DNA of 64,000 nt from an uncultured Actinomycetes bacterium (GCA_963823255.1 CAWGKU010000008.1:80075-144074); one strand, 5' to 3'; shown: positions 43,339 through 64,000, counted from the first letter of the stretch. Numbers and translations: made by a program. Notes: a model not told the origin generated them from the letters alone.

Positions 43339-43341
43339 CGA

Positions 43342-43357: not shown

Positions 43358-43392
43358 ACACCTTGAGGCAGGCCCCGCCGCGGCGGGATGGG

Positions 43393-45806: not shown

Positions 45807-45808
45807 AC

Positions 45809-46215: not shown

Positions 46216-46217
46216 TT

Positions 46218-47597
46218 ATGGCGATCGCATCGTTCGAGGAAGCCGCTGAACACACCTGGGCGCACGTCGTCGAACGCGCCCATGAGGAGCTGAGCGAGAG
46301 CTCGTTCTCGATGTGGTTCGGAGGCGTTCGCGCCACGAGCCTGCACGACGGGGTCCTGGAGGTCGTCGCCCCGTCCGAGTACGTGCGCGACTGGCTCGCC
46401 AAGCACTACGTCGGGCTGATCCAGGACGCCGCGGCCGAGGCCGTCGGGCTCCCCGTCAAGATCGAACTGGATTCGGCGCCCCCCGAAGAGGTTGTGCCGC
46501 AACGCGAACCGCCGGACCCACCCGAACACAAGCCGATCGCGGAGCGGCCCGGGTACGGGGCCCCCGGCCTGCCGTTCCCGAACTACACCTTCGAGACGTT
46601 CGTCGCGGGCCCGTCGAACCGGTTCGCGCACGCGGCGGCGATGGCGGTGGCCGACACGCCTCCGTCCAAGGCGTACAACCCGCTGTTCATCTACGGCGGC
46701 GTGGGACTCGGCAAGACCCACCTGCTCGTCGCGATCGGGCATCAGATGTTCGGCCTGTCCCCGCGGCTGCGCGTGAAGTACGTCACGAGCGAGAGCTTCA
46801 TGGCCGAGTTCATCAAGGCGGTGCGCGAACGCCAGGGCTACCAGTTCGCCGCGCGCTACCGCGACATCGACGTGTTGCTGGTCGACGACATCCAGTTCCT
46901 GGCCAAGCGCGAGGAGACCCAGACCGAGTTCTTCCATACGTTCAACGCGCTGCACCAGAAGGACCGCCAGATCGTGATCGCGTCGGACCGGCCGCCGCAG
47001 GAGCTCGGGATGGAGGAGCGCCTCCAGTCGCGGTTCCGCCTCGGCCTGTGCGTCGACGTGCAGCCTCCTGACCTGGAGACCCGCATGGCGATCTTGCAGC
47101 TGAAGGCCCAGCGCGACGAGCTCCACGTCCCCGACGACGTGATCGAGTTCATCGCCAACACGTTCGACCAGAACATCCGCGAGCTCGAGGGCGCGCTCGT
47201 TCGGGTGGTGGCGTGGGGCGACCTGACCGGACAACCGATCACCAGCGAGCTCGCCGAGCAGGCGCTCGAGGACCTGCTGCCCCAGGCCGAGGCCGAGATC
47301 CCGCCCGATCTGATCCTCGAAGAGAGCGCCCGTTACTTCGGGCTGTCCGTCCAGGACCTGATCTCGCCGAACCGCTCGAGGCCGCTCACGACCGCCCGTC
47401 ATGTCGCGATGTACCTGATGCGTGAGTGCAGCGGCCAATCCTTGGTCAAGATCGGCGACACGTTCGGCGGACGCGACCACACGACGGCCCGCCACGGCAT
47501 CCTCAAGGTCGAGAAGGACATGCGGGCCAGGACGGCGACGTACCGCCAAGTCCAGGACCTCTCGCGCATCATCCGCGGCCGGGCCCGGGCCGGATGA
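46218..47597 (+). CDS. dnaA: chromosomal replication initiator protein DnaA
   Basis: Motifs [32 protein letters not shown] and the domain IV region [16 protein letters not shown] are present. Confidence 0.97.
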
Positions 47598-47818
47598 GGG
47601 CCTTCGCGAGCCACGTGGACGGACCTGTGGGGAACATGGGTGGGGCCGGGGACACCCTCGAGGGGACCTCCGGCGAGTGCACAGATTCCCCCACCCGGTC
47701 CACATGTCCTACGGGGCCGTTACGCTCGGGAAACAGGCTCGTAGCGCTGTTTTCCACAGCACCTACTACTACTGAAAGAGGTAAGAGATGGATCAAGAAG
47801 CAGTAGGGGGGTGGACAA
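47598..47818. other. oriC: candidate oriC (dnaA-dnaN intergenic): DnaA boxes CGGTCCACA (47696-47704), TTTTCCACA (47750-47758) and TTGTCCACC (complement, 47810-47818) flank an AT-rich stretch at 47761-47805
   Basis: The boxes and a local GC drop (acctactactactgaaagaggtaagagatggatcaagaagcagtag) were read directly. The location is typical for Actinobacteria. Confidence 0.65.
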
Positions 47819-48922
47819 GTGAAGTTCCGGTGTGACCGTGACGCGCTGTCCGAGGCGCTGCAGACGGTCCAGCGCGGTGTCTCGTCGAGGCCGGGGATCC
47901 CCGCCCTCACCGGCGTCCTGATCGAAGCCGCGTCCGAGGGCGCGTTGACGCTCACGACGACGGACCTGGAGGTCTCGGCCCGACTGTCGATCGACGTGCA
48001 GGTGGGGGAGCCGGGGATCTCGCTCGTCCCGGCGCGGCTGCTGGCGGACACGGTGAAGAGCCTGTCGGACGCCCCCGTCGAGTTCGAGACCGATCAGTCG
48101 CAGGCGCGCATCCGATGCGCGGCCTACGAGGGCTCCCTCCGGCTGCTGCCGGCAGAGGACTTCCCGGCGCTCCAACCGCCGTCGGGAACCCGGATCGTGG
48201 CGGAGGCGCCGCGGTTCGCGGAGGCCGTCGGTCAGGTGGCCAGGGCCGCCTCGCGAGACGAGGCCAGGCCCGTGCTGACGGGGATCCTGCTCGAGGTGAG
48301 CCGGGAGGGCGTGACGCTCGTCGCGACCGACTCGTACCGGCTCGCCGTGCGCGACCTCGTGGCGACCTCCGCCGGCGAGGCGCGGGCGATCGTGCCCGAA
48401 CGGGCCCTCTCGGAGGCCGGCCGCGCCGCCCAGGCGATCGAGAAGGGCGAGGTCGAGGTGTTCGTCGACGAGAGCCAGGTCTCGTTCCAGGTCGGGCCGC
48501 TGATGCTCACGTCGCGGCTGATCGAGGGCGAGTTCCCGAACTACCGGCAGCTGCTCCCCGAGCAGTACGAGAGCCGGCTGACGGTCTCCCGGCAGCAGCT
48601 GATCGACGCCGTGCGCCGTGTCGGCCTGCTCGCCCGAGACACGTCGCCGGTCCGGCTCGAGTTCAACGCGCTCGGCGTCAAGCTCTCGTCCTCCTCGCCC
48701 GATCTCGGCCAGGCGGTCGAGGCGGTCGAGGCCCGGTACGAGGGCGAGGACATCACGGCGGCGTTCAACCCGAACTACCTCGCGGACGGCCTCGCCGCCG
48801 CCTCGGGCGAGTCGGTGCGGCTCGAGGTGCGGGACGGCCTGAAGCCGGGGATCGTGCGGGGCGAGTCGGACGAGTTCACGTACCTGGTGATGCCGGTCAG
48901 GCTGCCGACGCCGGTCGGTTGA
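47819..48922 (+). CDS. dnaN: DNA polymerase III subunit beta (sliding clamp)
   Basis: Motifs MKFRCDRDALSEALQTVQRGVS.. and VATDSYRLAVR.. are present. 367 aa. Confidence 0.95.
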   Translation: MKFRCDRDALSEALQTVQRGVSSRPGIPALTGVLIEAASEGALTLTTTDLEVSARLSIDVQVGEPGISLVPARLLADTVKSLSDAPVEFETDQSQARIRCAAYEGSLRLLPAEDFPALQPPSGTRIVAEAPRFAEAVGQVARAASRDEARPVLTGILLEVSREGVTLVATDSYRLAVRDLVATSAGEARAIVPERALSEAGRAAQAIEKGEVEVFVDESQVSFQVGPLMLTSRLIEGEFPNYRQLLPEQYESRLTVSRQQLIDAVRRVGLLARDTSPVRLEFNALGVKLSSSSPDLGQAVEAVEARYEGEDITAAFNPNYLADGLAAASGESVRLEVRDGLKPGIVRGESDEFTYLVMPVRLPTPVG

Positions 48923-48929
48923 TGCCGCG

Positions 48930-50025
48930 TTGCGGCTCGCGTGGGTCGAACTCCGGGACTTCCGCAACCATGTCGAGACGCGCCTGGACGAGCTCCCCGA
49001 CGCCCTGATCACGGTCGCGGGTCCCAACGGCGAGGGCAAGACCAACCTCCTCGAGGGGATCGCCTTCCTGTTCTTCCTCCAGTCGCCCCGGACCTCGTCC
49101 ACCGAACCCGTGGTCCGACGCGATGCGGACGGGCCCGCCTACGCGCGCGGCGAGGTGGTGACCGAGGAGGCCGGCAAGGTGCTGGTCGAGGTCGAGATCC
49201 CCGGCCGGGGCGCCAACCGCGTGCAGGTGAACCGCTCGTCGGTGCGGCGTAAGCGCGATCTGCGGCGACAGGTGCGCGCCGTGTACTTCGGACCCGACGA
49301 TCTCGTGATCGTGATCGGGGATCCCTCCAAGCGGCGCGACTTCCTCGACGACGCGATCCGGTCGCTGTGGCCGCTCAAGGAGTCTGCCATGACGGCCTAC
49401 GAACGCACGCTGCGACAGCGCAACCGACTGATCAAGGAGTGGGAGGGGCGCGGCGCCCCCACCGGGCTGGAGGCCTGGGACGCCGAGCTCGTCAAGAACG
49501 GGAGCGCGCTGATCCGGCTCCGCGCCGAGGCCGCGGCTCGGCTCGCGCCGTCCGCGGAGCAGGAGTACCGTCACCTCGCCGGCTACGGCCTGGCGTGCGA
49601 GTACGCTCCGAACGTGACCGGGGAGCCGCTCGAGGAGGCGTTCGAGGCCCGGCTGGCCGAACGCCGCAGCGACGAGCTGATCCGGCGGACCACGCTGGTG
49701 GGACCTCACCGAGACGATCTGACCCTTGCCGTGCGAGATCTCGGCGCCCGGAGCTTCGCGAGTCACGGGGAGGCATGGGCGGCGGCGCTCTGCCTGCGGC
49801 TCGGGCTCGCGAGCGCCGTGGCGGAGGAGGTCCGCGAACGGCCGGTCCTGCTCCTGGACGACCCCTTCTCGGCGCTGGACCCGCGGCGGCAGCGGCTGGT
49901 CGGGGAGCGGCTCGCCGGAACGCGGACAGGTCCTCGTCAGCGTCGCCGACGACGCGCACGTACCCGAACCCTCGACGCTGGTCCTCGACGTCTCGGCCGG
50001 CACGGTCGCCGCGCGGGGGGCGTGA
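48930..50025 (+). pseudogene. recF: DNA replication/repair protein RecF; 1-nt insertion at about 49914-49918
   Basis: The TTG start gives LRLAWVELRDFRNH, Walker A GPNGEGKTNLLEGI, and the signature up to LLLDDPFSALDPRRQRLVGERLAG. The C-terminus ERGQVLVSVADDAHVPEPSTLVLDVSAGTVAARGA is in the +1 frame. Length is 3n+1. Confidence 0.85.
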
Positions 50026-50029
50026 CCGG

Positions 50030-50383
50030 ATGCCGCATTCGAAGGGCTTCGCGCACCGCAAGGACGAGCGGACCCTCAAGGCGACCCTGATCGGCGACGT
50101 CGTCGACGGGTTGCTCCGCGAGCGGACGTTCGCGCGTGGCATGCCGATCGGCCAGCTGGCGTCGGATTGGGCCTCGGTGGTCGGTCCACGGCTGGCCGCG
50201 GAGTCCGCCCCGGTGAGCCTCGAACGCGGTGTCCTGGTGGTCGCCGCGACCACCGGACCCTGGGGCGCGCAGGTGCGGTTCCTCGCCGAACAGATCCGCG
50301 AACGGGCCGAGACCACGATCGGCCCCGGGAGCGTCGTCAAGGTGCAGGTGGTCGTCCGGGACGATCCACGGAAAGGCTTGTAG
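50030..50383 (+). CDS. dciA: DUF721/DciA-like protein (Rv0004 position, helicase-loader family)
   Basis: 117 aa located between recF and gyrB. Motif WASVVGPRLAAESAPVSLERGVLVVAATTGPWGAQVRFL is present. Confidence 0.75.
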   Translation: MPHSKGFAHRKDERTLKATLIGDVVDGLLRERTFARGMPIGQLASDWASVVGPRLAAESAPVSLERGVLVVAATTGPWGAQVRFLAEQIRERAETTIGPGSVVKVQVVVRDDPRKGL

Positions 50384-50452
50384 CGCAAGGCGTTCGGAGC
50401 ACCGGGATGAGCCTCGGATGGTGCCCAGAAACGCGTTCGCTGTCACCTCCGA

Positions 50453-52499
<2,047 letters not shown>

Positions 52500-52519
52500 G
52501 CCAAGGATCGGGAGGTTCG

Positions 52520-54970
52520 GTGGCGCAGGAATCGATGCTCGGCGGGCGGATCGAGGACGTCCAGCTCGAGGACCAGATCCAGACCTCGTACCTGGACTAC
52601 TCGATGTCCGTCATCGTCGGTCGCGCGCTGCCCGACGTCCGCGACGGTCTGAAGCCGGTCCACCGCCGGATCCTGTGGTCGATGTTCGAGCAGGGGCTTC
52701 GGCCGGATCGCCCCTACCGCAAGTCGGCCAACGTCGTCGGCGGCGTGATGAGCAAGTACCACCCGCACGGCGATCTCGCGATCTACGACGCGTTGGTCCG
52801 GATGGCGCAGGACTTCTCGCTGCGCGCACCGCTGGTCGACGGGCACGGGAACTTCGGCTCGGTCGACGGCGACCCGCCCGCGGCCCAGCGTTACACGGAG
52901 GCGCGGCTCGCGCCGATCGCGCTCGAGCTGCTCCGCGACATCGAGGCCGAGACGGTGGACTTCGTCCCGAACTACGACGGCTACGAGCAGCAGCCGGTCG
53001 TGCTCCCGGCGCGCCTGCCGAACCTGCTCGTCAACGGTTCGGGGGGGATCGCCGTCGGGATGGCGACGAACATACCGCCCCACAACCTCGGCGAGGTGAT
53101 CGACGCGGTCGTGCACTTCATCGAGCACCCCGAGTCCAAGCCGAAGGACCTGATGAAGTTCGTCAAGGGTCCGGACTTCCCGACCGGCGCGATCGTCATG
53201 GGCCGCGACGGCATCAAGGAGGCCTACGAGACCGGACGGGGCTCGATCAAGGTCCGTGCCGTCACGACGATCGAGGAGGCCCCCAACGGCCGTCAGCGGA
53301 TCGTGGTCACCGAGCTGCCCTACCAGGTGAACAAGGCTCGGCTCGCCGAGAAGATCGCCGACCTGGTGCGGACGGGGCGCTTGAAGGACGTCGCGGACGT
53401 CAAGGACCACTCGAGCGGCCGAGAGGGCATGCGCCTGGTCGTCGAGCTCAAGCGCGGCGCCAACCCCCAGGTCGTCCTGAACCAGCTCTACAAGCACACG
53501 CAGCTGCAGGACAGCTTCGGCGTGATCATGCTCTCGCTGGTCGACGGCGTCCCCCGGACGCTGAACCTGGCCGAGATGATCGGCTACTACGTCGACCACC
53601 AGATCGACGTCGTCACCCGGCGCACGCGCCACGAGCTGAAGAAGGCCGAGGAGCGCGACCACATCGTCAAGGGCCTGCTGATCGCGCTCGACAACCTCGA
53701 CGCGGTCATCAAGGTGATCCGCGGCTCGCAGGACGCCGAGGAGGCGCGCGGCAAGCTGATGACCCAGTTCAAGCTCAGCGAGGTCCAGGCGAACCACATC
53801 CTGGACATGCCGCTGCGGCGCCTCACCCGGCTGGCCAGGGCCGAGCTCGAGCAGGAGCACAAGGACCTGCTCGCGCGGATCCGCTACCTGAAGGGCCTGC
53901 TCAAGGACCCCAAGAAGATCCGCGCGGTGATCACGGAGGAGCTGCTCGAGGTCAGGAAGAAGTTCGCGAACCCGCGTCGCACGCAGCTCAAGGCCGACGA
54001 GGGCGAGTTCGACGTCCAGGACCTGATCGCCGAGGAGGACGTGGTCATCACGGTCTCCCGAGCCGGGTACGTCAAGCGCCAGCCGATCGAGAACTTCCGC
54101 CGTCAGGGACGAGGCGGCAGGGGCATCCGCGGCGCGAACCTCAAGGAAGAGGACGTGGTCAACGACGTCTTCACGACGACGACGCACAACTGGCTGCTCT
54201 TCTTCACCAGCAAGGGGAAGGTCTACCGGGTGAAGGTCCACGAGGTGCCCGAGTCGGGACGGACCGCGCGAGGGACCTACGCCGCGAACCTGCCGGGGGT
54301 CTCGATCACGGGCGACGAGAAGGTCCAGGCGGTGATCGACCTCAAGGAGTACGCGGACGGGCGGTACCTGTTGTTCGCCACCCGCAAGGGGATGGTCAAG
54401 AAGACCACGCTGCCCGAGTACGACTCGCCGCGGACCGGGCTGGCGGCGATCAACCTGAAGCCGGGCGACGAGCTGATCGACGTTCGGCTGACCGACGGCA
54501 AGGACGACGTGTTCCTGGTCTCGCGCAAGGGCCAGGCGATCCGGTTCAAGGAGAGCCTCGTTCGACCGATGGGCCGGCAGACCGCGGGCGTGATCGGGAT
54601 GCGCCTGGCGCCGGACGACGAGGTGATCGTCCTCGGCGTCGCCTCGCAGGGCGAGGAGCTGATCAGCGTCACCCACCAGGGGTACGGCAAGCGGACGCCG
54701 CTCAAGGACTACCCGGTGAAGGGGCGCGGAGGCAAGGGCGTGATCGGCCACACGCTCACGAAGAAGACCGGGCTGCTCGCCGGCGCGTTCGTCGGGTCGA
54801 AGGACCAGGACATGTTCGTGATCTCGTCGTCGGGGATCGTGATCAGGGTCGCGGCGGCCGACATCCGCCGCGTCGGTCGGGCGTCGCAGGGCGTTCGGAC
54901 GATGCGGGTCGAAGAGGGTGCGACCGTGGTCGCGCTCGCGCCGGTCATCGCCGCGGTCGAGCTCGAGTAG
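52520..54970 (+). CDS. gyrA: DNA gyrase subunit A
   Basis: Motifs [30 protein letters not shown], the QRDR region [19 protein letters not shown] and [10 protein letters not shown] are present. SD gggagg lies upstream of the GTG. Confidence 0.97.
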
Positions 54971-57477: not shown

Positions 57478-58293
57478 GTGGAGCGCGATCCGTGGGAGCT
57501 GGCGTTCGAGGCGGCTCGCGCGGCCGGGGTCGAGCTCCGGCCGCTCGCCGAGCTCGAGGACGCGGATCGCATCCTCCGGATCATGAACGCCACCTGGGCG
57601 GGCCCCGAGCCGTTCCCGCGCGAGATGCTCCGCGCGCTCGCCGACAGCGGGAACGTTCCGTTCGGCGCGTTCGACGGCGACGAGACGATCGGGTACGTGC
57701 TCGGGTGGGCGGGGGTCGACCCCGAGGACGGGCTGCACACCCATTCGCACATGCTCGCCGCGTTGCCCGATCGCCGTCATCGAGGGGTCGGGTACGCGCT
57801 CAAGCTCGCGCAACGCGCGCAGGCGCTCGACCAGGAGATCGCCGAGATCCGGTGGACGTTCGACCCGCTCGTGGCGCGCAACGGCTACTTCAACCTCTCC
57901 AAGCTGGGCGCGGTCGCCGACCGGTTCGACCGCAACCACTACGGGGCGATGGTCGACGAGGTGAACGCCGGTGAGCGGAGCGACCGCTTCACCATCCGGT
58001 GGGATCTGGGGCGCGAGCCCGGCCCGAGGGAGGTCGGCGCCCACGAGTCCGCGCTCGAGGACGCGGACGGGTGGCCGGGCGAGGTCCGGGCGCCGTCGGG
58101 ACGCTCGGCCCTCGTCACGGTTCCGAGCGAGTACGCGCGGATCCGGATCGACGATGCCCCGTGCGCGTCGGCGTGGCGGGATGCCTCGGCGCAGGCGATC
58201 GAGGCCTGCCTGACGGCCGGGATGATCGCGGCGGGGTTCGACCGGGGCTCCTCGAGCTACGTGTTCGCGCTCGCCGAGGACGTGCCCAGGTGA
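57478..58293 (+). CDS. GNAT-like acyltransferase, translationally coupled to the OSBS/NSAR gene
   Basis: 271 aa. The GNAT core is GYVLGW...HMLAALPDRRHRGVGYALKLAQRAQA. The stop overlaps the downstream GTG (GTGA). Confidence 0.6.
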   Translation: MERDPWELAFEAARAAGVELRPLAELEDADRILRIMNATWAGPEPFPREMLRALADSGNVPFGAFDGDETIGYVLGWAGVDPEDGLHTHSHMLAALPDRRHRGVGYALKLAQRAQALDQEIAEIRWTFDPLVARNGYFNLSKLGAVADRFDRNHYGAMVDEVNAGERSDRFTIRWDLGREPGPREVGAHESALEDADGWPGEVRAPSGRSALVTVPSEYARIRIDDAPCASAWRDASAQAIEACLTAGMIAAGFDRGSSSYVFALAEDVPR

Positions 58294-59402
58294 CGCGGGT
58301 CCGCTCGATCGAGCTGCGCCTGGTCGCGATCCCGCTGGTGCGGCCGTTCCGGACCAGCTTCGGCGAGTCCACGGAGAAGGTGTGCATCCTCGCGCGCGTC
58401 GAGACCGACGAGGCGTTCGGGTGGGGGGAGTGTGTGAGCGACGTCGAGCCGAACTTCTCCGAGGAGTGGAACGACGGGGCCTGGCTGATGATCCGGGACT
58501 TCCTCGCGCCCGCCCTGTTCGCCGCGGGGGACGTAGACCCCGAAGGCCTGGGCTCGGTCTTCTCGTTCGTCCGCGGACACCCGATGGCCAAGGCCACGCT
58601 CGGGAACGCGGTGCTCGACGCGGAGCTTCGGGCGCAGGGCCGCTCGCTCGCCGCCTACCTGGGCGCGGTCCGGGACCGCGTCGCGTGCGGCGTCTCGGTC
58701 GGGATCGCCTCGTCCACGGAGACGCTGCTGGAGCAGGTGTCGGGCTACCTCGCCGAGGGGTACCGGCGCGTCAAGCTCAAGATCGAACCGGGCAATGACG
58801 TCGAACGCGTCCGCGCGGTCCGCGAGGCGAACCCCGAGATCCTGCTCTCGGTGGACGCGAACGCCGCCTACGGGCTCACCGACGTCGACGTGTTCCGGCA
58901 GCTCGATGCGTTCGGGCTGCTGATGGTGGAGCAGCCGTTGCACCACGAGGACCTCTACGAGCACTCGCTGCTCCAACGAGAGATCCGGACCGACCTGTGT
59001 CTCGACGAGTCGATCCGTTCGTCCGCGGACGCCCGTGCGGCGATCGAGCTCGGCTCGTGCCGGATCGTGAACATCAAGCAGGGTCGCGTTGGCGGGCTCC
59101 TCGAGGCCAAGCGCGTGCACGACGTGGCCGCCGAGCTCGGCGTCCCCGTCTGGTGCGGCGGGATGCTCGAGACCGGGATCGGGCGTTCGACGAACCTCGC
59201 GCTCGCCGCGCTGCCGAACTTCACGTTGCCCGGCGACACGAGCGCGACCTCGCGGTACTTCGCCGAGGACCTGACCGAACCGCTCGTCCTCGCGCCCGAC
59301 GGGACGCTGCCGGTCCCCGACGGGCCCGGGATCGGCGCCGACCCCGACGCCGGGCGGCTCGAGGCCGCCACCCGTCGGGTCGAGCGGCTGGAGAAAGAGT
59401 GA
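58290..59402 (+). CDS. menC: enolase-superfamily o-succinylbenzoate synthase / N-succinylamino-acid racemase (MenC/NSAR subgroup)
   Basis: Motifs RPFRTSFGE, KLKIEPG, SVDANAAY, MVEQPL, LDES and NIKQGRVGG (KxK, D, E, D, K catalytic pattern) are present. Confidence 0.8.
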   Translation: MTRVRSIELRLVAIPLVRPFRTSFGESTEKVCILARVETDEAFGWGECVSDVEPNFSEEWNDGAWLMIRDFLAPALFAAGDVDPEGLGSVFSFVRGHPMAKATLGNAVLDAELRAQGRSLAAYLGAVRDRVACGVSVGIASSTETLLEQVSGYLAEGYRRVKLKIEPGNDVERVRAVREANPEILLSVDANAAYGLTDVDVFRQLDAFGLLMVEQPLHHEDLYEHSLLQREIRTDLCLDESIRSSADARAAIELGSCRIVNIKQGRVGGLLEAKRVHDVAAELGVPVWCGGMLETGIGRSTNLALAALPNFTLPGDTSATSRYFAEDLTEPLVLAPDGTLPVPDGPGIGADPDAGRLEAATRRVERLEKE

Positions 59403-59462
59403 CAAAACCTCGCGCACCGGGTTGACCGGTCCTCGGGCCGTCCATACAGTGCCCGATGAGAG

Positions 59463-59501
59463 ACCGCTGTGACCTTCGGGTCGCGGCGGTTTCTCACTTT
59501 T
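59463..59501 (+). terminator. rho-independent-type terminator: 12-bp stem (two G-U pairs), UUCG tetraloop, T-rich tail tttctcacttttcc
   Basis: ACCGCTGTGACC-TTCG-GGTCGCGGCGGT followed by a T-rich run, 60 nt after the menC stop. Confidence 0.6.
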
Positions 59502-59629
59502 CCGGGGTCGTTCGACCCGCCCGTCTCCTGCTTCGTCCGTCCCCGCGACCGGTTCGATGGCGCAAGCCGCACATGCCGGTTGCTGCTCGTCCTAGACTCC
59601 ATCGACGCCGGTCGACGAGAGGCTGCGGG

Positions 59630-60265
59630 ATGCGCAAACGGGTCATCAGGGCGGGCGAGATCGAGATCGAGGACTCGGAGGGGCGCGTGCGCGCCCGGTT
59701 CGGCGTCTCGAACGAGGATCTCCCGTTCATGTCGTTCTACGGTGCGGACGACAAGCTGCGCGCGCGGTTCGGCGTGCAGCCAGACGGTTCGGCCGGCCTG
59801 GCGATCGCCGACGACGAGGGCAAGGTCCGTGCGACCTTCGGCCTGTTCTCCGACGGGTCGGCGAGCATGGCGATGGTCGACCGCAACGGGAGGGTCCGCG
59901 CGAAGTTCGGCCTGGGCACCGAGGGCTCGCCCACCCTCGCGCTCCGCAACAAGGACGGTCAGCTCGGCTTCGTGTACTCGCTCGCGCAGCAGGGCTCGCC
60001 GACGATCTCGCTGCAGGACGAGGACGGCAAGGTGCGCGCCCGCATCGGGCTCGCGGCCGAGGGCTCGCCGATCCTGCGGCTGTTGAACAAGGAGGGCGAG
60101 CTCCGCGCGATCATGGGTCTGACCGGGGACGGGACGCCCGTGATGCAGTTCCTCGACGCGAAGGGCGAACCCGAGTGGACGACACCGAGTTCGTTCTCGC
60201 CGACCGACGTGACCCCTCCCGATGCGCCGAAGCCTTCCGAGCCGGAGGCTCGGGAGCGGGGCTGA
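59630..60265 (+). CDS. tandem-repeat protein: about 7.5 copies of a 23-residue unit (consensus x-h-x-h-x-D-x-x-G-K-V-R-A-x-F-G-L-x-x-x-G-S-P), Pro-rich tail, no signal peptide
   Basis: Repeats were read from the translation (GLAIADDEGKVRATFGLFSDGSA / SMAMVDRNGRVRAKFGLGTEGSP / TISLQDEDGKVRARIGLAAEGSP ...). It is the first gene of the operon that runs to 63176. Confidence 0.65.
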   Translation: MRKRVIRAGEIEIEDSEGRVRARFGVSNEDLPFMSFYGADDKLRARFGVQPDGSAGLAIADDEGKVRATFGLFSDGSASMAMVDRNGRVRAKFGLGTEGSPTLALRNKDGQLGFVYSLAQQGSPTISLQDEDGKVRARIGLAAEGSPILRLLNKEGELRAIMGLTGDGTPVMQFLDAKGEPEWTTPSSFSPTDVTPPDAPKPSEPEARERG

Positions 60266-60271
60266 CGCGGC

Positions 60272-60776
60272 GTGTCAGGATGGTGGGCCGCGGCCTTCGT
60301 CGTCCTGTGGATCCTGGTCGCCGTGCTCGCGGTCGTCGTGGTCGCCCTCGCGCGACAGATCGGCGTGCTACAGCTCCGCCTCGCACCGCTCGGGGCGCTC
60401 GAGATCGACGACGAGGGTCCCCCGCTGGGGGAGGCGCCCGAGGCTCGGGCGGCACGAACGCCTGACGGCTCGTCCACGGTGGTCGGCGGGCCCGGGAGCG
60501 AGCCGGCTGGTGGCGTTCGTCTCGGACACCTGCCCGATCTGCGAGCAGGTCGCGCCCTCGCTGCCGGCGGCCGCCCGCGCGAGCGGGCTCGAGCTGCAGG
60601 TCGTATCGGATCCGGATCTGGAGGTCGCCTACCGCGTCCCGGGGGTGCCGTTCGTCGTCGTGCTCGACGAGCTCGGGCACGTTCGGTCGAAGGGGACCGT
60701 GAACTCGCTCGAGCAGGTCGAGGGTCTGGTCGACACCGCGCGGCGTCGAACGACGCAGGAGCTCCGGGCCGGCTGA
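60272..60776 (+). pseudogene. MauD-like membrane-anchored thioredoxin-fold protein (CPIC active site); 1-nt insertion at about 60503
   Basis: Frame 2 gives VSGWWAAAFVVLWILVAVLAVVVVALARQIGVLQLRLAPLGALE..DGSSTVVGGPGSE. Frame 0 continues RLVAFVSDTCPICEQVAPSL...VPGVPFVVVLDELGHVRSKGTVNSLEQVEGLV. Length is 3n+1. Confidence 0.7.
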
Positions 60777-61300
60777 TGGGGGCCGTCGAGCGAGCCGGGA
60801 CCGAGCTCGCGCGCCGGACGAGCCGCCGTTCGTTCCTCGGCAGGCTCGGCCGAACGATCGTCGCGGTCGCCGGGGGCTCGATGGTGGCCGTCGCGCTCGA
60901 ACCCGACCGCGCCGAGGCCCACCACATCTGCGGCCACCTCTACACGACGGGGTCGTGTCCCCATCCCTACGCGCCGCATTCGAGGACGGACGCGTACGGG
61001 TTCCCGGTGCACCCGCGGCTGGGCTACCCGGTCGACGACGACGGCGCGATCTACCTCTCGGAACGGCAGACGCGGCGGAAGGTGTGTCAGACCGTCGTGC
61101 CCGAACGGTACCCGTTCGTCCAGAACCCCCGCTACGGCGGCGGCTGGAGCCGTTGCTGCAACGGCCGGGTGCGGCACATCCAGGACTGCTGCTCGATCTC
61201 CGACACGCGGATCAACGGTGACGGCGCGGTGCGCGGTTACTGCCCGCGCGGCCGCAAGGTCTTCTGCATCACGTACCGGGAGCTGAACGTCCGATGCTGA
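60776..61300 (+). CDS. Tat-exported cysteine-rich protein homologous to the methylamine/aralkylamine dehydrogenase light chain (MauA-like)
   Basis: The Tat leader TELARRTSRRSFLGRLGRTIVAVAGG parallels the MauA leader. The mature part has 10 Cys, including W-SRCC...QDCC, and a single Trp. The start forms an ATGA overlap with the upstream stop. Confidence 0.7.
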   Translation: MGAVERAGTELARRTSRRSFLGRLGRTIVAVAGGSMVAVALEPDRAEAHHICGHLYTTGSCPHPYAPHSRTDAYGFPVHPRLGYPVDDDGAIYLSERQTRRKVCQTVVPERYPFVQNPRYGGGWSRCCNGRVRHIQDCCSISDTRINGDGAVRGYCPRGRKVFCITYRELNVRC

Positions 61301-61371
61301 GCGAACCCGTCGGTCTCGCGCTCGTCGTGGCGTCGGTGGTGGCGGGGATCTCGAGCCTGTTCGGGCCCTGA
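61294..61371 (+). CDS. possible 25-aa hydrophobic peptide MLSEPVGLALVVASVVAGISSLFGP, or the true 5' end of the next gene interrupted by an in-frame TGA
   Basis: The ATG overlaps the MauA-like stop (ATGCTGA). GC3 is 23/25. It is in the same frame as the 61381 ORF, separated only by TGA plus 3 codons. Confidence 0.4.
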   Translation: MLSEPVGLALVVASVVAGISSLFGP

Positions 61372-61380
61372 GGCCTCTCG

Positions 61381-62514
61381 ATGGTGGAAACCATCACCCC
61401 CGTCGTGCACGGGGGCAGCCGGAGCCGATGGGCGGTTTCGGTCGCCCTGCACGCGATCGGAGCCGCCACGTCCGCCGCGATCGCCGGCGCGCTGCTCGCA
61501 GCTGCCGGCGGGCTGCTCGGTGCGCCCTGGGGCGTTGCGGGCCTGGGACTCGTCGCCGCGTCGGCCGCGCTGTACGTAGCGCGCGAACTCGGGGCACCGG
61601 TGCCGGTGCCGCAGTTGCGGCGGCAGGTGCCCGACTGGTGGCGCACGTTCTTCCCGCCGCACGTCGCTGCGTTGCTGTACGGGATCGGGCTCGGGCCCGG
61701 GTTCCTGACGTACCTGGGCCATGGGACGGTCGTCGTGGTGTCGGTCGCCGCGTTCGCGAGCGGACGACCGCTCGTCGGGGCGGCGGTCCTCGCCCCGTTC
61801 GGTTTGGCCCGCGGGTTGGGGCCCGTGCTGGCGCTTGGCGTGCGCTCACCGAGCGAGGGAGCGGCCCTCGTCGAGCGCCTCGAGCGGTCGGCGTCCCGGG
61901 CGCGATGGCAGGTCGCGAACGCGCTCGCGCTGTCGGCGGTCGCGGCGGCGATCGTGGTCGAGATCCGGACGTTCGAGGGACCTTCCGGGTTCGGCGGGCT
62001 CGCGGCCGCCGTGCTGGGGCTCACGTTCACCGCGGCCGCGGTGACGAAGCTGGCGCGCGGAGCCGCGTGGAGGCGGACACTTGCGGCGTACCGGCTCCCG
62101 GGCGGGGTCTCGCGGCTCGTGGCCTCCGTGATCCCGATCGTCGAGCTCGTGATCGTCGGGCTCGTGGTCGTGGGGCTGGGAGCGACGGCGGGGCTCGTGT
62201 CGCTCGTGGCGCTGGTGTCGTTCTCCGCGGCGATCGTGGTGGGTCGCGTTCGGTCGGGCCGGCGTCTGGGGTGCGGGTGCTTCGGTGGTTCGACGACCCG
62301 GGATTACCGGGTTCTGCTCACCCGCAACCTCGCGCTCGCGGGGATCGCGCTCGGGGCGTGGAGGATGGGGGAGGACGCGCCGCTCGTGCGATCGCTCCGC
62401 GAACCCGGCGGCGCCGACCTGCTCCCTGCGGCCCTGATCGTGCTCGGCCTCGCCCTGGCCGCGTGGGTGGGGGCGACGGCGTTCGCAGGCGCAGGCCGGA
62501 GATCCGGTCGTTGA
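61381..62514 (+). CDS. polytopic membrane protein: Cys-free N-terminal multi-TM domain fused to a C-terminal MauE/DoxX-type domain
   Basis: The C-terminal half carries the MauE hallmark GCGCFGG and the flanking TM pattern. The N-terminal about 190 aa has 5-6 TM helices and no family is recognised. Confidence 0.65.
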   Translation: MVETITPVVHGGSRSRWAVSVALHAIGAATSAAIAGALLAAAGGLLGAPWGVAGLGLVAASAALYVARELGAPVPVPQLRRQVPDWWRTFFPPHVAALLYGIGLGPGFLTYLGHGTVVVVSVAAFASGRPLVGAAVLAPFGLARGLGPVLALGVRSPSEGAALVERLERSASRARWQVANALALSAVAAAIVVEIRTFEGPSGFGGLAAAVLGLTFTAAAVTKLARGAAWRRTLAAYRLPGGVSRLVASVIPIVELVIVGLVVVGLGATAGLVSLVALVSFSAAIVVGRVRSGRRLGCGCFGGSTTRDYRVLLTRNLALAGIALGAWRMGEDAPLVRSLREPGGADLLPAALIVLGLALAAWVGATAFAGAGRRSGR

Positions 62515-63176
62515 GGCGTCAAGCGCTCGGGCTCGGCGCGCTCGTCGCGGTCACGGCGATCGCGCTCGCGCTGCCCGCTCTGGCGCACCACACCGACCAG
62601 GTTGATCCGAACGACACGGACGGGAAGCTGGACCTGGAGCAGGTGGGGTTCGATCACGAGGGAGAAGTGCCGAGCTGGCGGATGGTGACGTTCTCGACCT
62701 GGACCGTCCGCTCGATCTGGGATCGAGGGAACTTCGTCGTGCAGCTCGACACGAGGGGCGACGCCGCCGCCGATTACGTCGCGGTCGTCCGATCGAACGG
62801 CCGGCGGCTGATCGCCACGTTGTTCCGGCTCCGGAGGAGCGGCCGTCAGATCGAGGTCACCTCGCTCCGCACCGACAAGCAAGACTCGTGGGCCGCCACG
62901 GTGACCGTCCCGCTGAGCGAGGTCTCGATCGGACCGAACCGCAATTCGTACTTCTGGTCGGTGCTCTCGAGCTTCACGGGTGGGAGCTGCGCGCGGACGT
63001 GTCTCGACACTGCTCCCGACGACGGGATGATCGAGCAGCCGCTCCCCGGCGTCACGCCGTCGCCGTCGCCGACCCCGCCCCCGACGCCGACCCCGCCCTC
63101 CGACGCCGACCCCGCCCCCGACGCCGTCCGCGGGCCCGTCCACTTGACGCCGGAGGGCGAAGAGCCGCATCTATGA
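62511..63176 (+). CDS. secreted protein of unknown function with Pro/Thr/Ser-rich C-terminal tail
   Basis: The TTG start overlaps the upstream stop (TTGA). The signal peptide is LRRQALGLGALVAVTAIALALPALA|HH. The body looks beta-rich with one Cys pair (GGSCARTC). Confidence 0.55.
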   Translation: MRRQALGLGALVAVTAIALALPALAHHTDQVDPNDTDGKLDLEQVGFDHEGEVPSWRMVTFSTWTVRSIWDRGNFVVQLDTRGDAAADYVAVVRSNGRRLIATLFRLRRSGRQIEVTSLRTDKQDSWAATVTVPLSEVSIGPNRNSYFWSVLSSFTGGSCARTCLDTAPDDGMIEQPLPGVTPSPSPTPPPTPTPPSDADPAPDAVRGPVHLTPEGEEPHL

Positions 63177-63186: not shown

Positions 63187-63262
63187 GGGGACGTAGCTCA
63201 GTCGGTAGAGCACCTGCTTTGCAAGCAGGGGGTCGGCGGTTCGAGTCCGCTCGTCTCCACCA
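63187..63262 (+). tRNA. alaT: tRNA-Ala (anticodon TGC), CCA encoded
   Basis: A hand-folded cloverleaf gives acceptor GGGGACG/CGTCTCC with the G3:U70 identity pair, anticodon loop TTTGCAA and T-loop TTCGAGT. Confidence 0.92.
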
Positions 63263-64000
63263 CTAAATGCCCAGGTAGAGGCGCAGATTCATCTCGATGT
63301 GACACCGCCCAAACTGCCTTGTCGCTCTCCTCGTGTACCCTCGGTGTACCGGAAGGAAGAGGTTCGGACGGTTGGCTTGGATCAGGACCTACGAGGTTGA
63401 GTCGGGCGCAAGGTATCGAGTCTTCTGGAAGGACCCGTCGGGCAAGCAGCACGGCAAGGTCTTCAAGCGTCAGAGCGACGCACGTTCCTTCCAACGGTCC
63501 CTCGCCCATGCTCTGGACACAGGGGGCTACACGGACCCTCGTCGAGGGCGTATCACCCTCGCTGAACTGTGGACCGACTTCATCGAGTCTCCTCCGGCTC
63601 CGCTCGCCGCGAGCACCAAGTCTCTGCTATCAAATGCAGTGGCGCGTCCATATCCGACCGCGACTTGGGGATCGACCCATCAACTCGTTGCACCCGGAGG
63701 ATGTGCGCCGCTTCATGTCGGATCTGAATAGGGATGGTGTCGGCGCAACAAGCGTGGACAGCGTCCACCGTCTGCTCCGGAGACTCCTGTCGGTCGCAGT
63801 CAAGGACCGCCGAATCGCGTTCAACCCGGCGTCCGGAATCCATGCACCGCGACCTCCCCGAAAGGAGATGCGGTACCTGAATGCCGAGGAGGTGCGACGC
63901 CTCGCATCCGAGGTCCCGAACCGCTACGAGGCCCTGATTCTTACCTTGGCCTATGCCGGCCTTCGCATCGGTGAGGCGGCAGCCCTACGAACCCGCAATG
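63263..64000 (+). mobile_element. left end of an integrated element (genomic island or prophage) inserted at tRNA-Ala; it continues beyond the window
   Basis: A tyrosine integrase gene begins 70 nt after the tRNA 3' end, and GC visibly drops right after the tRNA. Confidence 0.6.
63333..64000 (+). pseudogene. int: tyrosine-type site-specific integrase (phage integrase family), 3' end outside the window; 1-nt insertion at about 63627
   Basis: Frame 0 gives ...WIRTYEVESGARYRVFWKDPSGKQHGKVFKRQSDARSFQRSL..ITLAELWTDFIES..STKSL. Frame 1 continues YQMQWRVHIRPRLGDRPINSLHPEDVRRFMSDLNRDGVGATSVDSVHRLLRRLLSVAVKDRRIAFNPA...LILTLAYAGLRIGEAAALR. A possible TTG start at 63372 follows SD ggaaggaagagg. Confidence 0.8.

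What the first reader, a model, noticed from the sequence alone, without database searches (positions are those of the whole stretch)
59630..63176. Orphan MauD / MauA-like / MauE operon without heavy chain, MauG or amicyanin
Five to six tightly coupled genes form one operon. The junctions are a 6-nt gap and ATGA, ATGCTGA and TTGA overlaps. The operon sits between a terminator (59463-59501) and tRNA-Ala. It encodes a 23-residue repeat protein, a MauD-like membrane thioredoxin (CPIC) and a Tat-exported Cys-rich homolog of the TTQ-bearing light chain of methylamine dehydrogenase. It also encodes a MauE-domain fusion membrane protein and an unknown secreted protein. In characterised mau/aau clusters (e.g. 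Paracoccus mauRFBEDACJGMN), the light chain is always accompanied by the about 40-kDa beta-propeller heavy chain MauB, the di-haem MauG that completes TTQ, and a cupredoxin acceptor. None of these is present here. That argues for a distinct system: a disulfide-rich exported small protein with a dedicated MauD/MauE oxidative-folding module and new partner proteins. It is possibly not an amine dehydrogenase at all.
Basis: partly seen in the sequence, partly recalled or inferred. Interest (0 to 1): 0.85.

Follow-up and report, generated by a model that had tools for sequence, protein, structure and literature searches.

The report
Orphan MauD/F/E module with selenocysteine
A gene cluster found in at least 582 uncultured actinobacterial species pairs three helper proteins known from methylamine dehydrogenase assembly with an unrelated-looking exported cysteine-rich protein, and one helper appears to use selenocysteine where relatives have the family's only shared cysteine.

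Summary

1. The Cys-rich Tat protein (60776-61300) is not a detectable methylamine dehydrogenase (MADH) light chain. PF02975, a PDB profile search, hhalign and Foldseek on a pLDDT 86 model all fail. The mature protein has one Trp, so TTQ cannot form. Only its long Tat leader is MauA-like (hhalign 96%).

2. The "MauE fusion" is a MauF-MauE fusion. The module therefore holds homologs of MauD, MauF and MauE.

3. The "small ORF" is the 5' end of that fusion gene (61294-62514). An in-frame TGA (61369-61371) is present in all 79 evaluable window-type sequences. P. denitrificans MauF and all 6 sister-clade genes have Cys there. The TGA-ATG linker varies almost only at third codon positions. Two conserved hairpins follow, one with compensatory changes. 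I predict selenocysteine.

4. The mauD-like gene in this window carries a 1-nt insertion (A60501).

tblastn with P. denitrificans proteins finds no MauB, MauG, amicyanin or MauJ/M/N in the window or within 10 kb in 84 related loci. At least 582 species genomes encode the Cys-rich protein. Its function is unknown. The most likely reading is a dedicated thiol-redox maturation relay for a new exported redox or cofactor protein and its secreted partner.

The parts
59422..59450 (+). Sigma-70-like promoter match (TTGACC-17-TACAGT) upstream of the operon.
   Evidence: 2 sites found against 0.1 expected from shuffles. This is a consensus match only.
59457..59504 (+). 18-bp GC-rich hairpin with a UUCG loop followed by ACUUUU. 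It is either the terminator of the upstream menC-like gene or a 5'-leader element of the operon.
   Evidence: -42.6 kcal/mol, z = -4.67, 0 of 200 shuffles as stable. No Rfam family matches it.
59630..60265 (+). 211-aa protein with seven 23-residue beta-hairpin-type repeats and no signal peptide. It is an accessory member of the module, present in 58 of the 85 sequences compared.
   Evidence: offset-23 identity 0.32; it matches only engineered OspA hairpin-repeat proteins; where detected it almost always lies about 1.06-1.2 kb upstream of the Cys-rich gene.
60272..60776 (+). MauD-like membrane-anchored thioredoxin (CPIC motif). In this window it is interrupted by a 1-nt insertion (A at 60501), so the N-terminal part is in frame 60272 and the C-terminal part is in the frame that ends at 60776.
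   Evidence: the close relatives L005 and L006 lack the extra base and encode intact 167/169-aa proteins. TIGR02661 E 2.5e-23, below the equivalog cut-off; 30% identity to P. denitrificans MauD, E 2e-24.
60776..61300 (+). 174-aa Tat-exported protein. It has a MauA-type leader (residues 1-48) and a 126-aa mature domain with 10 invariant Cys, one invariant Trp and invariant DCC and CGH motifs. It is the presumed client of the module.
   Evidence: family alignments, no Pfam domain; leader similarity to MauA; no light-chain membership; confident model with no PDB fold match.
61294..62514 (+). MauF-MauE fusion membrane protein, 406 codons when read through the in-frame TGA. Gene callers start it at 61381.
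   Evidence: full translation and alignment with P. denitrificans MauF. MauF similarity E 1e-5 here and 1.8e-18 for a clade-B homolog. MauE PF07291 E 5e-20.
61369..61371 (+). In-frame TGA, predicted selenocysteine codon (residue 26, motif FGP-U-GLSM). It aligns with the only Cys shared by the aligned MauF homologs (WSP-C-GF/YS).
   Evidence: TGA in all 79 evaluable sequences (the window plus 78 loci), never TAA or TAG. Cys in 6 of 6 clade-B genes and in P. denitrificans MauF; the linker varies almost only at codon position 3.
61380..61415 (+). Two conserved hairpins directly downstream of the TGA; candidate SECIS element. H1 is 61380-61395 (GAUGGU-GGAA-ACCAUC) and starts 11 nt from the U of UGA. 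H2 is 61397-61415 (CCCCCGU...ACGGGGG).
   Evidence: 94.6% of cells paired; compensatory changes at 3 pairs of H2; 0 of 500 shuffles reach the covariation score; the structure is not kept in Cys-type clade-B genes (5-7 of 13 pairs).
62511..63176 (+). 221-aa secreted protein (signal peptide, His-His at the predicted mature N-terminus, two conserved Cys, Pro-rich tail). No known domain. It always lies next to the MauE domain and is the presumed partner of the Cys-rich protein.
   Evidence: no Pfam, NCBIfam or PDB match; detected in 67 of 85 sequences; most of the rest end before that position, and it moves together with MauE in both gene orders; conserved residues.
63187..63262 (+). tRNA-Ala (TGC), 10 nt after the operon's last stop codon. 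It marks the operon's 3' boundary.
   Evidence: ARAGORN; Rfam tRNA, 72.8 bits.

Best explanation
This is a conserved actinobacterial module in which a membrane thiol-redox relay matures one dedicated exported client.

Shown
- The relay parts are homologs of three methylamine dehydrogenase (MADH) accessory proteins: MauD (an anchored thioredoxin with CPIC), MauF and MauE (with a CGC motif).
- MauF and MauE are fused in this lineage. MauE and MauD are fused in the sister clade. These fusions argue that all three act as one complex.
- The client is a Tat-exported 126-residue domain with 10 invariant Cys. It carries a MauA-type leader, but its body is not a recognisable light chain.
- In the window's clade, TGA replaces the codon for the only Cys shared by the aligned MauF homologs. 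A conserved hairpin pair follows it.

Inferred
- The TGA is decoded as selenocysteine, which would make the MauF position a redox-active relay residue.
- Electrons pass between the membrane pair MauE/MauF and the outward-facing MauD. MauD then forms, reshuffles or protects the client's cysteines as the client emerges.
- The matured client pairs with the co-conserved secreted protein (62511-63176) to make an extracytoplasmic redox or cofactor-bearing protein of unknown substrate.
- The direction of electron flow (oxidising like DsbB/DsbA, or reducing/isomerising like CcdA/ResA) is not determined.

In this particular window the mauD-like gene is broken by one inserted base. That is either an assembly error or a recent inactivation.
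For: Homology of the relay parts
- MauD-like: TIGR02661 E 2.5e-23; blastp to P. denitrificans MauD E 2e-24.
- MauE: PF07291, 72.5 bits.
- MauF: 40% identity over 73 aa in the window, and 34% over 177 aa (E 1.8e-18) in a clade-B homolog. The SPCG motif is shared.

Synteny
- All 85 sequences compared keep the mauD-like gene directly upstream of the client. The mauF-like gene is directly downstream in nearly all loci long enough to show it.
- Fusions MauF-MauE (here) and MauE-MauD (clade B) are seen.

Leader
- hhalign of the family leader against MauA leaders gives probability 96%, E 2.3e-9.
- A leader HMM scores 8 MauA/AauA leaders at 14-32 bits and 10 control Tat leaders at 11 bits or less.

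Selenocysteine
- TGA is present in all 79 evaluable sequences, with conserved protein flanks.
- Cys is at that position in 6 of 6 clade-B genes and in P. denitrificans MauF.
- Variation in the 9-nt linker is almost entirely at codon position 3.
- Hairpins show compensatory changes and are absent from the Cys-type genes.
- TGA is the ordinary stop codon of the neighbouring genes, so the genetic code is standard.

Breadth
- At least 582 species-level genomes encode a relative.
- There are 621 and 2,686 protein clusters at 90% identity for the two searches.
- The client is the best conserved protein of the operon.
Against: - No experiment or transcript data exist.
- The selenocysteine machinery (selA, selB, selC, selD) could not be looked for in these genomes. 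A recalled SelD sequence and ARAGORN found nothing in the roughly 1.2 Mb of loci held, which proves nothing.
- TGAGG also reads as a Shine-Dalgarno core 7 nt before the ATG at 61381. A split gene with translational coupling is therefore not excluded.
- No Rfam SECIS family matches.
- The biochemical roles of MauD, MauE and MauF are unknown even in Paracoccus, so the relay is an inference from motifs and fusions.
- The role of the secreted partner rests on co-occurrence only.
- The mauD-like frameshift means the module may be non-functional in this genome.
Confidence: 0.6

Rival explanations
1. The Cys-rich protein is a very divergent light-chain relative. It carries a different tryptophan-derived quinone, for example a Cys-Trp quinone made from the invariant Trp and the extra Cys in WxRCC. 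The secreted protein (or the repeat protein, co-exported by Tat hitch-hiking) would serve as the large subunit. The operon would then encode a new quinoprotein dehydrogenase made without MauG.
For: - There is collinear motif resemblance to light chains: C-P-x-x-T, W-x-x-C-C, D-C-C, G-Y-C-P, F/W-C and a C-terminal Cys (sequences).
- hhalign to 15 short PF02975 proteins aligns the family's Trp and DCC with the TTQ Trp57 and Asp76-Cys77-Cys78 positions. Probability is 33%, P = 4.5e-4.
- The gene occupies the position that mauA has after mauD.
- It has a MauA-type leader.
- Its sequence is extremely conserved.
Against: - No significant score against PF02975 or TIGR02659 for any of more than 50 members.
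- hhalign to canonical light chains gives probability 0.1-3%.
- No MADH or AADH chain appears among the top 50 Foldseek matches for a pLDDT 86 model.
- The second TTQ Trp is an invariant Phe.
- No known hydroxylating or cross-linking enzyme (MauG, LodB/GoxB-type flavoprotein, QhpD/QhpG-type) was seen next to the operon.
Confidence: 0.17
2. The TGA at 61369 is a genuine stop codon. In this clade MauF would be split into a 25-aa membrane peptide and a Cys-less main body, which is re-initiated at ATG 61381 by translational coupling through the GAGG that overlaps the stop.
For: - TGAGG contains a Shine-Dalgarno-like GAGG 7 nt upstream of the ATG.
- Gene callers in public data start the gene at this ATG.
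- TGA is the commonest stop codon in such GC-rich genomes.
- The selenocysteine machinery is not demonstrated.
Against: - The stop would fall exactly on the only Cys shared by the aligned MauF homologs.
- All 79 evaluable sequences have TGA with no length change.
- The 9-nt linker behaves as coding sequence in the same frame: second codon positions are invariant and third positions vary freely.
- The Met is ancestral and internal in the Cys-type homologs.
- The ATG would sit inside the stem of an invariant hairpin.
- The hairpins occur only where the TGA occurs.
Confidence: 0.12
3. The Cys-rich protein is a metal- or cluster-binding protein that uses Cys/His ligands such as CGH...CPH. It is loaded in the cytoplasm and exported folded by Tat. 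The MauD/F/E-like proteins would keep its thiols reduced or deliver the metal, rather than forming disulfides.
For: - Tat export is typical for cofactor-containing proteins.
- The mature domain has 10 Cys and 7 His, including an invariant CGH and a nearly invariant CPH.
- There are weak recurrent zinc-finger-type hits in 12 of 50 members, best E 0.016.
- Both exported proteins start with His-His in the window.
- MauD belongs to the TlpA/ResA-like redoxins, which are usually reductants (established knowledge).
Against: - No metal-binding family scores significantly.
- Apart from H6, the His positions are not invariant across clades.
- In mau clusters, MauD, MauE and MauF are linked genetically to a disulfide-rich client, not to a metalloprotein (PMC7794033 summarising van der Palen 1997).
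Confidence: 0.12
4. The cluster encodes a ribosomally made, modified and secreted peptide product (RiPP- or bacteriocin-like). This would parallel the mauE/mauD-containing candidate clusters reported in Streptomyces.
For: The decRiPPter study reported Streptomyces clusters with mauE (one also with mauD) next to precursors holding at least 8 Cys, in genomes lacking other mau genes (PMC7794033).
Against: - The client is a 126-residue domain predicted to fold compactly (pTM 0.80).
- It has a Tat signal rather than a cleavable RiPP leader.
- It is 70-90% identical across many species.
- In the window and in some relatives the cluster sits in the origin-proximal core of the chromosome, beside gyrA and a menC-like gene.
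- No protease, transporter or immunity gene is associated with it.
Confidence: 0.03

Closest known systems
mau/aau gene clusters of Proteobacteria (Paracoccus denitrificans mauRFBEDACJGMN; methylamine and aromatic amine dehydrogenases)
   Same: - Homologs of MauD, MauE and MauF are present.
- The client gene directly follows mauD, as mauA does.
- The client has the long MauA-type twin-arginine leader.
- The client is small and Cys-rich.
   Different: - No heavy chain MauB, di-haem MauG, amicyanin or MauJ/M/N was detected in the window or in the flanks of 84 relatives.
- The client body fails all light-chain models, has one Trp and 10 Cys, and matches no PDB fold.
- MauF is fused to MauE and has TGA in place of its Cys.
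- There is an additional secreted partner and a repeat protein.
- In the window it lies in the chromosome's origin region rather than in a catabolic island.
Short light-chain-like genes with a long MauE fusion protein on the Thermomicrobium roseum megaplasmid (and 18 related PF02975 proteins)
   Same: - A non-proteobacterial, non-canonical pairing of a small Cys-rich Tat protein with a MauE fusion protein.
- They share the WxxCC...DCC hairpin motif and a C-terminal Cys with the present family.
   Different: - Those proteins are bona fide PF02975 members (hhalign 98.8% to canonical MauA).
- They keep both TTQ tryptophans.
- Their neighbours are 400-450-aa hypothetical proteins that could be heavy chains.
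Streptomyces candidate RiPP clusters containing mauE/mauD (decRiPPter, PMC7794033)
   Same: Orphan mauE (and mauD) genes next to a gene for a product with at least 8 Cys, in genomes without other mau genes. The authors also propose that MauE/MauD modify the Cys-rich product.
   Different: - Those are short precursor peptides in accessory clusters of Streptomyces.
- Here the client is a folded Tat-exported domain.
- MauF, a secreted partner and a TGA codon are part of the set.
- In the window the cluster is chromosomal-core.
- Sequence relatedness to those clusters was not tested.
Membrane thiol-redox relays: DsbB-DsbA, VKOR-thioredoxin, DsbD/CcdA-ResA/TlpA
   Same: A polytopic membrane protein with essential Cys residues is coupled to an outward-facing thioredoxin-fold protein that acts on exported Cys-containing clients. 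Fusion of the membrane and thioredoxin parts (as in VKOR-Trx) parallels the clade-B MauE-MauD fusion (comparison from established knowledge).
   Different: There is no sequence membership in those families. The module has three components with one dedicated client. The direction of electron flow is unknown.
Prokaryotic Sec/Cys thiol-oxidoreductase selenoproteins (thioredoxin-, DsbA-, AhpD-like and similar)
   Same: A single in-frame UGA sits at the position of a conserved redox-type Cys in homologs. A stem-loop begins about 11 nt downstream, as in the E. coli fdhF rule (rule from established knowledge).
   Different: MauF has not, to my knowledge or in the literature searched, been listed as a selenoprotein family. 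The residue lies at the end of a transmembrane helix of a polytopic membrane protein. No Rfam SECIS model matches.

Membership tests
Methylamine/aralkylamine dehydrogenase light chain (Pfam PF02975, NCBIfam TIGR02659) | The mature domain scores against the family model. | tested here: not met
   - No PF02975 hit at E <= 10 for the window protein, its mature part, 4 divergent members, or any of the 50 members of A4.
- TIGR02659 matches only leader residues 4-37 (E 0.022, 14.6 bits against a cut-off of 196.85).
- A family profile finds no MADH/AADH chain in the PDB at E <= 10.
Methylamine/aralkylamine dehydrogenase light chain (Pfam PF02975, NCBIfam TIGR02659) | Two tryptophans that form tryptophan tryptophylquinone (Trp57 and Trp108 in P. 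denitrificans). | tested here: not met
   The mature protein has exactly one Trp. That Trp is invariant. The position before the Cys that would follow Trp108 is an invariant Phe.
Methylamine/aralkylamine dehydrogenase light chain (Pfam PF02975, NCBIfam TIGR02659) | Remote homology of the core by profile-profile comparison. | tested here: inconclusive
   hhalign against 8 canonical light chains gives probability 0.1%. Against 15 short Thermomicrobium-type PF02975 proteins it gives probability 33%, P = 4.5e-4, over 27 columns covering WxxCC...DCC.
Methylamine/aralkylamine dehydrogenase light chain (Pfam PF02975, NCBIfam TIGR02659) | Light-chain fold. | tested here: not met
   The AlphaFold2 model of the mature domain has pLDDT 85.7 and pTM 0.80. 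Foldseek against the PDB gives a best E of 0.34 with TM 0.16-0.26, and no MADH/AADH chain among the 50 matches shown. A direct superposition could not be run.
Methylamine/aralkylamine dehydrogenase light chain (Pfam PF02975, NCBIfam TIGR02659) | Long twin-arginine leader with a conserved region before the RR motif. | tested here: met
   - hhalign of leader against leader gives probability 96.2%, E 2.3e-9.
- TIGR01409 scores 16.9 bits against a cut-off of 16.7.
Methylamine/aralkylamine dehydrogenase light chain (Pfam PF02975, NCBIfam TIGR02659) | Encoded together with heavy chain MauB, MauG and an electron acceptor. | tested here: not met
   tblastn with the P. denitrificans proteins gives no hit (E <= 1e-3) in the 64-kb window or in the flanks (up to 10 kb) of 84 loci. 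Pfam scans of most window ORFs show no propeller heavy chain, di-haem peroxidase or cupredoxin. The rest of the genome is not testable here.
MauD (NCBIfam TIGR02661) | N-terminal membrane anchor plus a thioredoxin fold with CxxC, scoring against the model. | tested here: inconclusive
It is 30% identical to P. denitrificans MauD over 186 columns, E 2e-24. CPIC is present. It is a relative, not an equivalog, and it is frameshifted in this window.
MauE (Pfam PF07291) | Scores above the gathering threshold; membrane domain with the CGC motif. | tested here: met
   72.5 bits against 27, residues 207-327 of the 377-aa call. It is 40% identical to P. denitrificans MauE over 88 aa and includes GCGCFG.
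MauF (methylamine utilisation protein F; no Pfam or NCBIfam model found) | Sequence similarity to characterised MauF, including the SPCG motif at the end of the first helix and the PQ-RRQVP motif. | tested here: met
   - blastp of the window protein against P. denitrificans MauF: 40% over 73 aa, E 1e-5.
- Clade-B homolog: 34% over 177 aa, E 1.8e-18.
- tblastn with MauF hits 65 of 85 sequences.
- The alignment shows the shared motifs, with TGA at the Cys.
- P. denitrificans MauF itself hits nothing in Pfam or NCBIfam.
Bacterial selenoprotein | In-frame UGA aligned with Cys in homologs, with coding conservation on both sides. | tested here: met
   TGA in all 79 evaluable sequences, the window included. 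Cys in 6 of 6 clade-B genes and in P. denitrificans MauF. The linker shows a codon-position-3 variation pattern.
Bacterial selenoprotein | SECIS-type stem-loop shortly downstream of the UGA. | tested here: met
   - Two hairpins start 11 and 28 nt from the U.
- The apical loops begin with G.
- 94.6% of cells are paired, with 3 pairs showing compensatory changes.
- The structure is not kept in the Cys-type genes.
- No Rfam SECIS family matches.
- Binding by SelB is not testable here.
Bacterial selenoprotein | The genome encodes selA, selB, selC (tRNA-Sec) and selD. | not testable with these tools
   Only the window and about 20 kb or less per related locus are held. ARAGORN found no tRNA-Sec, and tblastn with a recalled SelD sequence found nothing. 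This is uninformative.

The most novel reading that the evidence does not exclude
The 10-Cys protein carries a previously unknown protein-derived cofactor or cross-link built on its single invariant Trp and the adjacent Cys pair. The cofactor would be made without MauG by a selenocysteine-dependent MauD/MauF/MauE relay. Together with the co-conserved secreted protein, the client would form a new extracytoplasmic redox enzyme that is part of the core physiology of a large group of uncultured soil Actinomycetota.
Probability: 0.18. Interest if true: 0.95.

Novelty: new variant of a known kind. Interest (0 to 1): 0.8.

Why it matters
- **Open question about the helpers.** MauD, MauE and MauF have been known for some thirty years to be needed for the MADH small subunit. 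Their biochemical roles were never resolved.
- **What this module adds.** Here the three helpers occur without the dehydrogenase. They are joined by gene fusions that link all three, and the conserved Cys of MauF is naturally replaced by a predicted selenocysteine. That is a strong pointer that this residue is redox-active and that the three proteins form one thiol relay.
- **Testability.** The old question becomes directly testable, in Paracoccus as well as in these organisms.
- **New families.** The work defines a large, highly conserved and unannotated protein family (at least 582 species; no Pfam domain; no PDB fold match). In the window and some relatives its gene lies near the chromosome origin. 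It also adds a candidate new membrane selenoprotein family.
- **Annotation consequence.** Current gene calls truncate the MauF-MauE gene at the TGA.

Tried and rejected
- **Light-chain membership.** Tested with Pfam and NCBIfam scans, a PDB profile search, hhalign against canonical and short light chains, and Foldseek. Rejected for membership; left open only as twilight-zone homology of one hairpin.
- **First structure model.** Built from a shallow alignment, it was unusable (pLDDT 46). Adding the sister clade fixed this.
- **Repeat protein as a degenerate heavy chain.** blastp to MauB gives 28 bits (0 of 100 shuffles reach it), but hhalign probability is 0.9%. Not accepted.
- **Secreted protein versus the clade-B MauF C-terminal domain.** Not related (hhalign probability 0.2%).
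- **Riboswitch or known RNA in the leader or after the TGA.** None found in Rfam.
- **Search for tRNA-Sec and SelD in the held loci.** Nothing found; uninformative.
- **My first test of the small ORF.** It used a wrong frame (61296 instead of 61294) and gave a spurious "not conserved" result. This was corrected.
- **Literature searches.** Searches for MauF/MauE/MauD outside methylotrophs and for MauF/DoxX selenoproteins found only the decRiPPter note.
- **Alternative genetic code (TGA as Trp or Gly).** Rejected, because TGA terminates all neighbouring genes.

Full report
**What is in the window**

Between the menC-like gene (57999-59402) and tRNA-Ala (63187-63262) lies a run of co-directional genes on the + strand:

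- g1, 59630-60265: a 211-aa protein with seven 23-residue repeats. Identity at offset 23 is 0.32. It has no signal peptide.
- g2, 60272-60776: a mauD-like gene.
- g3, 60776-61300: a 174-aa Cys-rich protein with a twin-arginine signal.
- g5, 61294-62514: a membrane protein gene, usually called from 61381.
- g6, 62511-63176: a 221-aa secreted protein.

The junctions are a 6-nt gap, a 1-nt TGATG overlap (not ATGA), ATGCTGA and TTGA. An 18-bp hairpin followed by a short U tract lies at 59457-59504 (z = -4.67). It sits just after a promoter-like match, so it may be a leader element rather than a terminator. No Rfam family other than the tRNA matches the region.

The mauD-like ORF is split between two reading frames. 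Two close relatives (L005 and L006) have intact 167/169-aa genes. Aligned with them, the window has one extra A at 60501. As a result, 60272-61300 reads as a single 342-aa chimera. This is either an assembly error or a recent inactivation. All other genes of the operon are intact.

**Identity of the helper proteins**

- *MauD-like.* The repaired g2 product matches TIGR02661 (MauD) at E 2.5e-23, below the equivalog cut-off. It is 30% identical to P. denitrificans MauD (E 2e-24). It has an N-terminal anchor and a CPIC motif.
- *MauE.* The C-terminal half of g5 is a clear MauE domain (PF07291, 72.5 bits against 27). It contains GCGCFG.
- *MauF.* I took the real mau cluster from the P. denitrificans plasmid as a reference. 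The N-terminal half of g5 proves to be a MauF homolog.
  - It is 40% identical over 73 aa in the window (E 1e-5).
  - A sister-clade homolog is 34% identical over 177 aa (E 1.8e-18).
  - tblastn with MauF hits 65 of the 85 sequences compared.
  - P. denitrificans MauF itself matches no Pfam or NCBIfam model. That explains why this homology is invisible to routine annotation.

**The Cys-rich protein is not a recognisable light chain**

Every direct test failed:

- PF02975 gives no hit at E <= 10 for the window protein, for divergent members, or for any of the 50 aligned members.
- TIGR02659 touches only the leader.
- A family profile finds no MADH or AADH chain in the PDB.
- hhalign against eight canonical light chains gives probability 0.1%.

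A first structure model was poor (pLDDT 46). With both clades in the alignment, the mature domain models confidently (pLDDT 85.7, pTM 0.80). Foldseek then finds nothing in the PDB (best E 0.34). No light chain appears among the 50 matches shown.

The mature protein has one Trp, 10 Cys and 7 His, so TTQ cannot form.

What is MauA-like is the leader. hhalign gives probability 96%, E 2.3e-9 over 31 columns.

One weak, collinear resemblance remains. The invariant W-x-R-C-C ... D-C-C hairpin aligns with the TTQ-Trp57 and Asp76-Cys77-Cys78 hairpin of short Thermomicrobium-type light chains (probability 33%, P = 4.5e-4). I regard core homology as possible (about one in three) but unproven.

**Conservation and gene order**

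- The family is large and tight. Searches found 621 clusters at 90% identity for the window type and 2,686 for a profile of the sister clade, which has a roughly 30-residue insert.
- It collapses to essentially one full-length representative at 50% identity.
- At least 582 species-level genomes encode it. All 80 genomes listed are MAGs, nearly all labelled Actinomycetota (one Solirubrobacterales). Some sister-clade proteins come from MAGs labelled Gaiellaceae and Capillimicrobium.
- I compared 85 sequences (the window plus 84 loci) by tblastn:
  - The mauD-like gene is always 500-600 nt upstream of g3.
  - The mauF-like gene is about 600 nt downstream in nearly all loci whose contig extends that far.
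  - MauE and g6 travel together. They are either fused to or downstream of MauF, or divergently upstream.
  - g1 is present in 58 of the 85.
- In the sister clade MauE and MauD are fused into one protein of about 290 aa. There MauF carries an extra C-terminal domain of about 270 aa.
- No MauB, MauG, amicyanin, MauJ, MauM or MauN is detected in the window or in any flank.
- The window is the chromosome origin region (parAB, yidC, dnaA, dnaN, recF, gyrBA), with menaquinone genes nearby. The same gyrA/menC-like context recurs in some relatives.

**Predicted selenocysteine**

The "small ORF" starts at 61294 (ATGCTGA) and is in frame with g5. The two are separated only by TGA (61369-61371) and three codons. 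The evidence for read-through is as follows:

- In all 79 evaluable window-type sequences (the window plus 78 loci) the codon is TGA. The flanks are conserved as protein...AG-x-S-x-L-[FY]-x-P / TGA / G-[LMF]-S-M-[VA]-E-T-I.
- Variation in the 9-nt linker is confined to third codon positions, plus the first base of the Leu/Phe/Met codon.
- In P. denitrificans MauF and in 6 of 6 sister-clade genes this position is Cys, in the motif W-S-P-C-G-[FY]-S. It is the only Cys shared by all the aligned MauF sequences.
- Two hairpins follow the TGA.
  - H1 (61380-61395) starts 11 nt from the U and is invariant.
  - H2 (61397-61415) shows compensatory changes at three pairs.
  - Overall 94.6% of cells are paired, and 0 of 500 shuffles reach the covariation score.
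  - In the Cys-type genes the same register forms only 5-7 of 13 pairs.
- TGA terminates the neighbouring genes, so the genetic code is standard.

This is the classical Sec/Cys signature. The caveats:

- TGAGG could also serve as a ribosome-binding site for the ATG at 61381.
- No Rfam SECIS model matches.
- The Sec machinery could not be sought in these genomes.

I put selenocysteine at about 0.8.

**How it most likely works**

*Shown:*
- Three Mau-type helpers are present.
- They are linked pairwise by fusions.
- A dedicated client carries a MauA-type leader.
- A co-conserved secreted protein accompanies them.

*Inferred:*
- MauE (CGC), MauF (Cys or Sec) and MauD (CxxC) form one membrane thiol relay.
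- The relay forms, reshuffles or protects the ten cysteines of the client outside the cytoplasm.
- The client then associates with g6.
- The final activity (redox enzyme, cross-linked cofactor protein or metal protein) is unknown. So is the direction of electron flow.

**Comparison with what is known**

- The nearest described systems are the proteobacterial mau/aau clusters. They share the helpers, the leader and the gene position. They differ in the client and have a heavy chain, MauG and amicyanin that this module lacks.
- The Thermomicrobium light-chain-like loci contain true PF02975 members.
- Streptomyces mauE/mauD clusters with Cys-rich precursors were noted in the decRiPPter study (PMC7794033).
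- I found no description of this architecture, of this protein family, or of a MauF selenoprotein in the searchable literature.

**Verdict**

- The finding is more interesting than a mis-annotated mau operon but different from what was proposed. It is a widespread orphan MauD/F/E maturation module with a new client and a predicted selenocysteine.
- It is a new variant of a known kind; interest 0.8.

Noticed in passing
window 40328-54970: The window spans the chromosomal replication-origin region: parB, parA, jag, yidC (all on the - strand), then dnaA, dnaN, recF, gyrB and gyrA. In this genome, and with the same gyrA/menC-like context in some relatives, the operon therefore lies in the conserved origin-proximal core.
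   Followed up: partly
window 30242-36658 and 57999-59402: Menaquinone-biosynthesis-type genes are present: chorismate-binding MenF-like, TPP MenD-like, UbiA MenA-like, MenB and MenE-like. A mandelate racemase/OSBS-type (menC-like) gene lies directly upstream of the operon. This is a possible link to a quinone-coupled MauE/DoxX-type protein, but it rests on proximity only.
   Followed up: no
window 63250-64000: GC content drops from about 0.71 to 0.60-0.63 right after tRNA-Ala. An ORF at 63333-63731 looks by eye like the N-terminus of a phage-type integrase but has no Pfam hit. This may be an integrated element at the tRNA.
   Followed up: partly
window 60272-61300: Because of the extra A at 60501, this stretch is one uninterrupted 342-aa ORF. 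It fuses the MauD membrane anchor, an out-of-frame segment and the whole Cys-rich protein. Automatic gene callers may report this chimera.
   Followed up: yes
L015 (Thermomicrobium roseum megaplasmid NC_011961.1) 696-1148, about 5750-6200 and 6323-8113: There are two short light-chain-like genes (PF02975 type, both TTQ Trp kept), one of them unannotated. They lie next to a 596-aa MauE/DoxX fusion protein and three 400-456-aa hypothetical proteins. This is a second non-canonical, non-proteobacterial mau-like locus.
   Followed up: partly
L096 11481-12938, L097 6215-7672, L098 8416-9855, L099 5668-7122, L100 5603-7126: In the sister clade MauF carries a C-terminal extracytoplasmic domain of about 270 aa with faint beta-propeller-repeat hints (TIGR04275 E 7.6e-5, below cut-off). 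It is unrelated to the window's secreted protein. It could be that clade's counterpart of a large subunit.
   Followed up: partly
window 59630-60265: The only database match of the 23-residue-repeat protein is to engineered OspA proteins with repeated single-layer beta-hairpins (E 2.6e-7). That suggests a flat beta-hairpin repeat architecture. Its similarity to the MauB propeller is marginal (28 bits; hhalign 0.9%).
   Followed up: partly
window 7347-8294 (- strand): A TusA plus DsrE/DsrF-like fusion protein (sulfur-relay type) is encoded here. No link to the operon or to selenium handling was examined.
   Followed up: no
L040 and L041: Two contigs of the same MAG (SMAG_U2888) each carry a full copy of the module, 76% identical to the window protein. 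Some genomes may therefore hold two copies, or the bin may mix two strains.
   Followed up: no
P0134, P0135, P0252 (public gene calls): Several public protein predictions fuse neighbouring genes of this module. One of them (P0134) shows Trp at the TGA position (FGP-W-GLSM), as if it had been translated with a TGA=Trp code.
   Followed up: no
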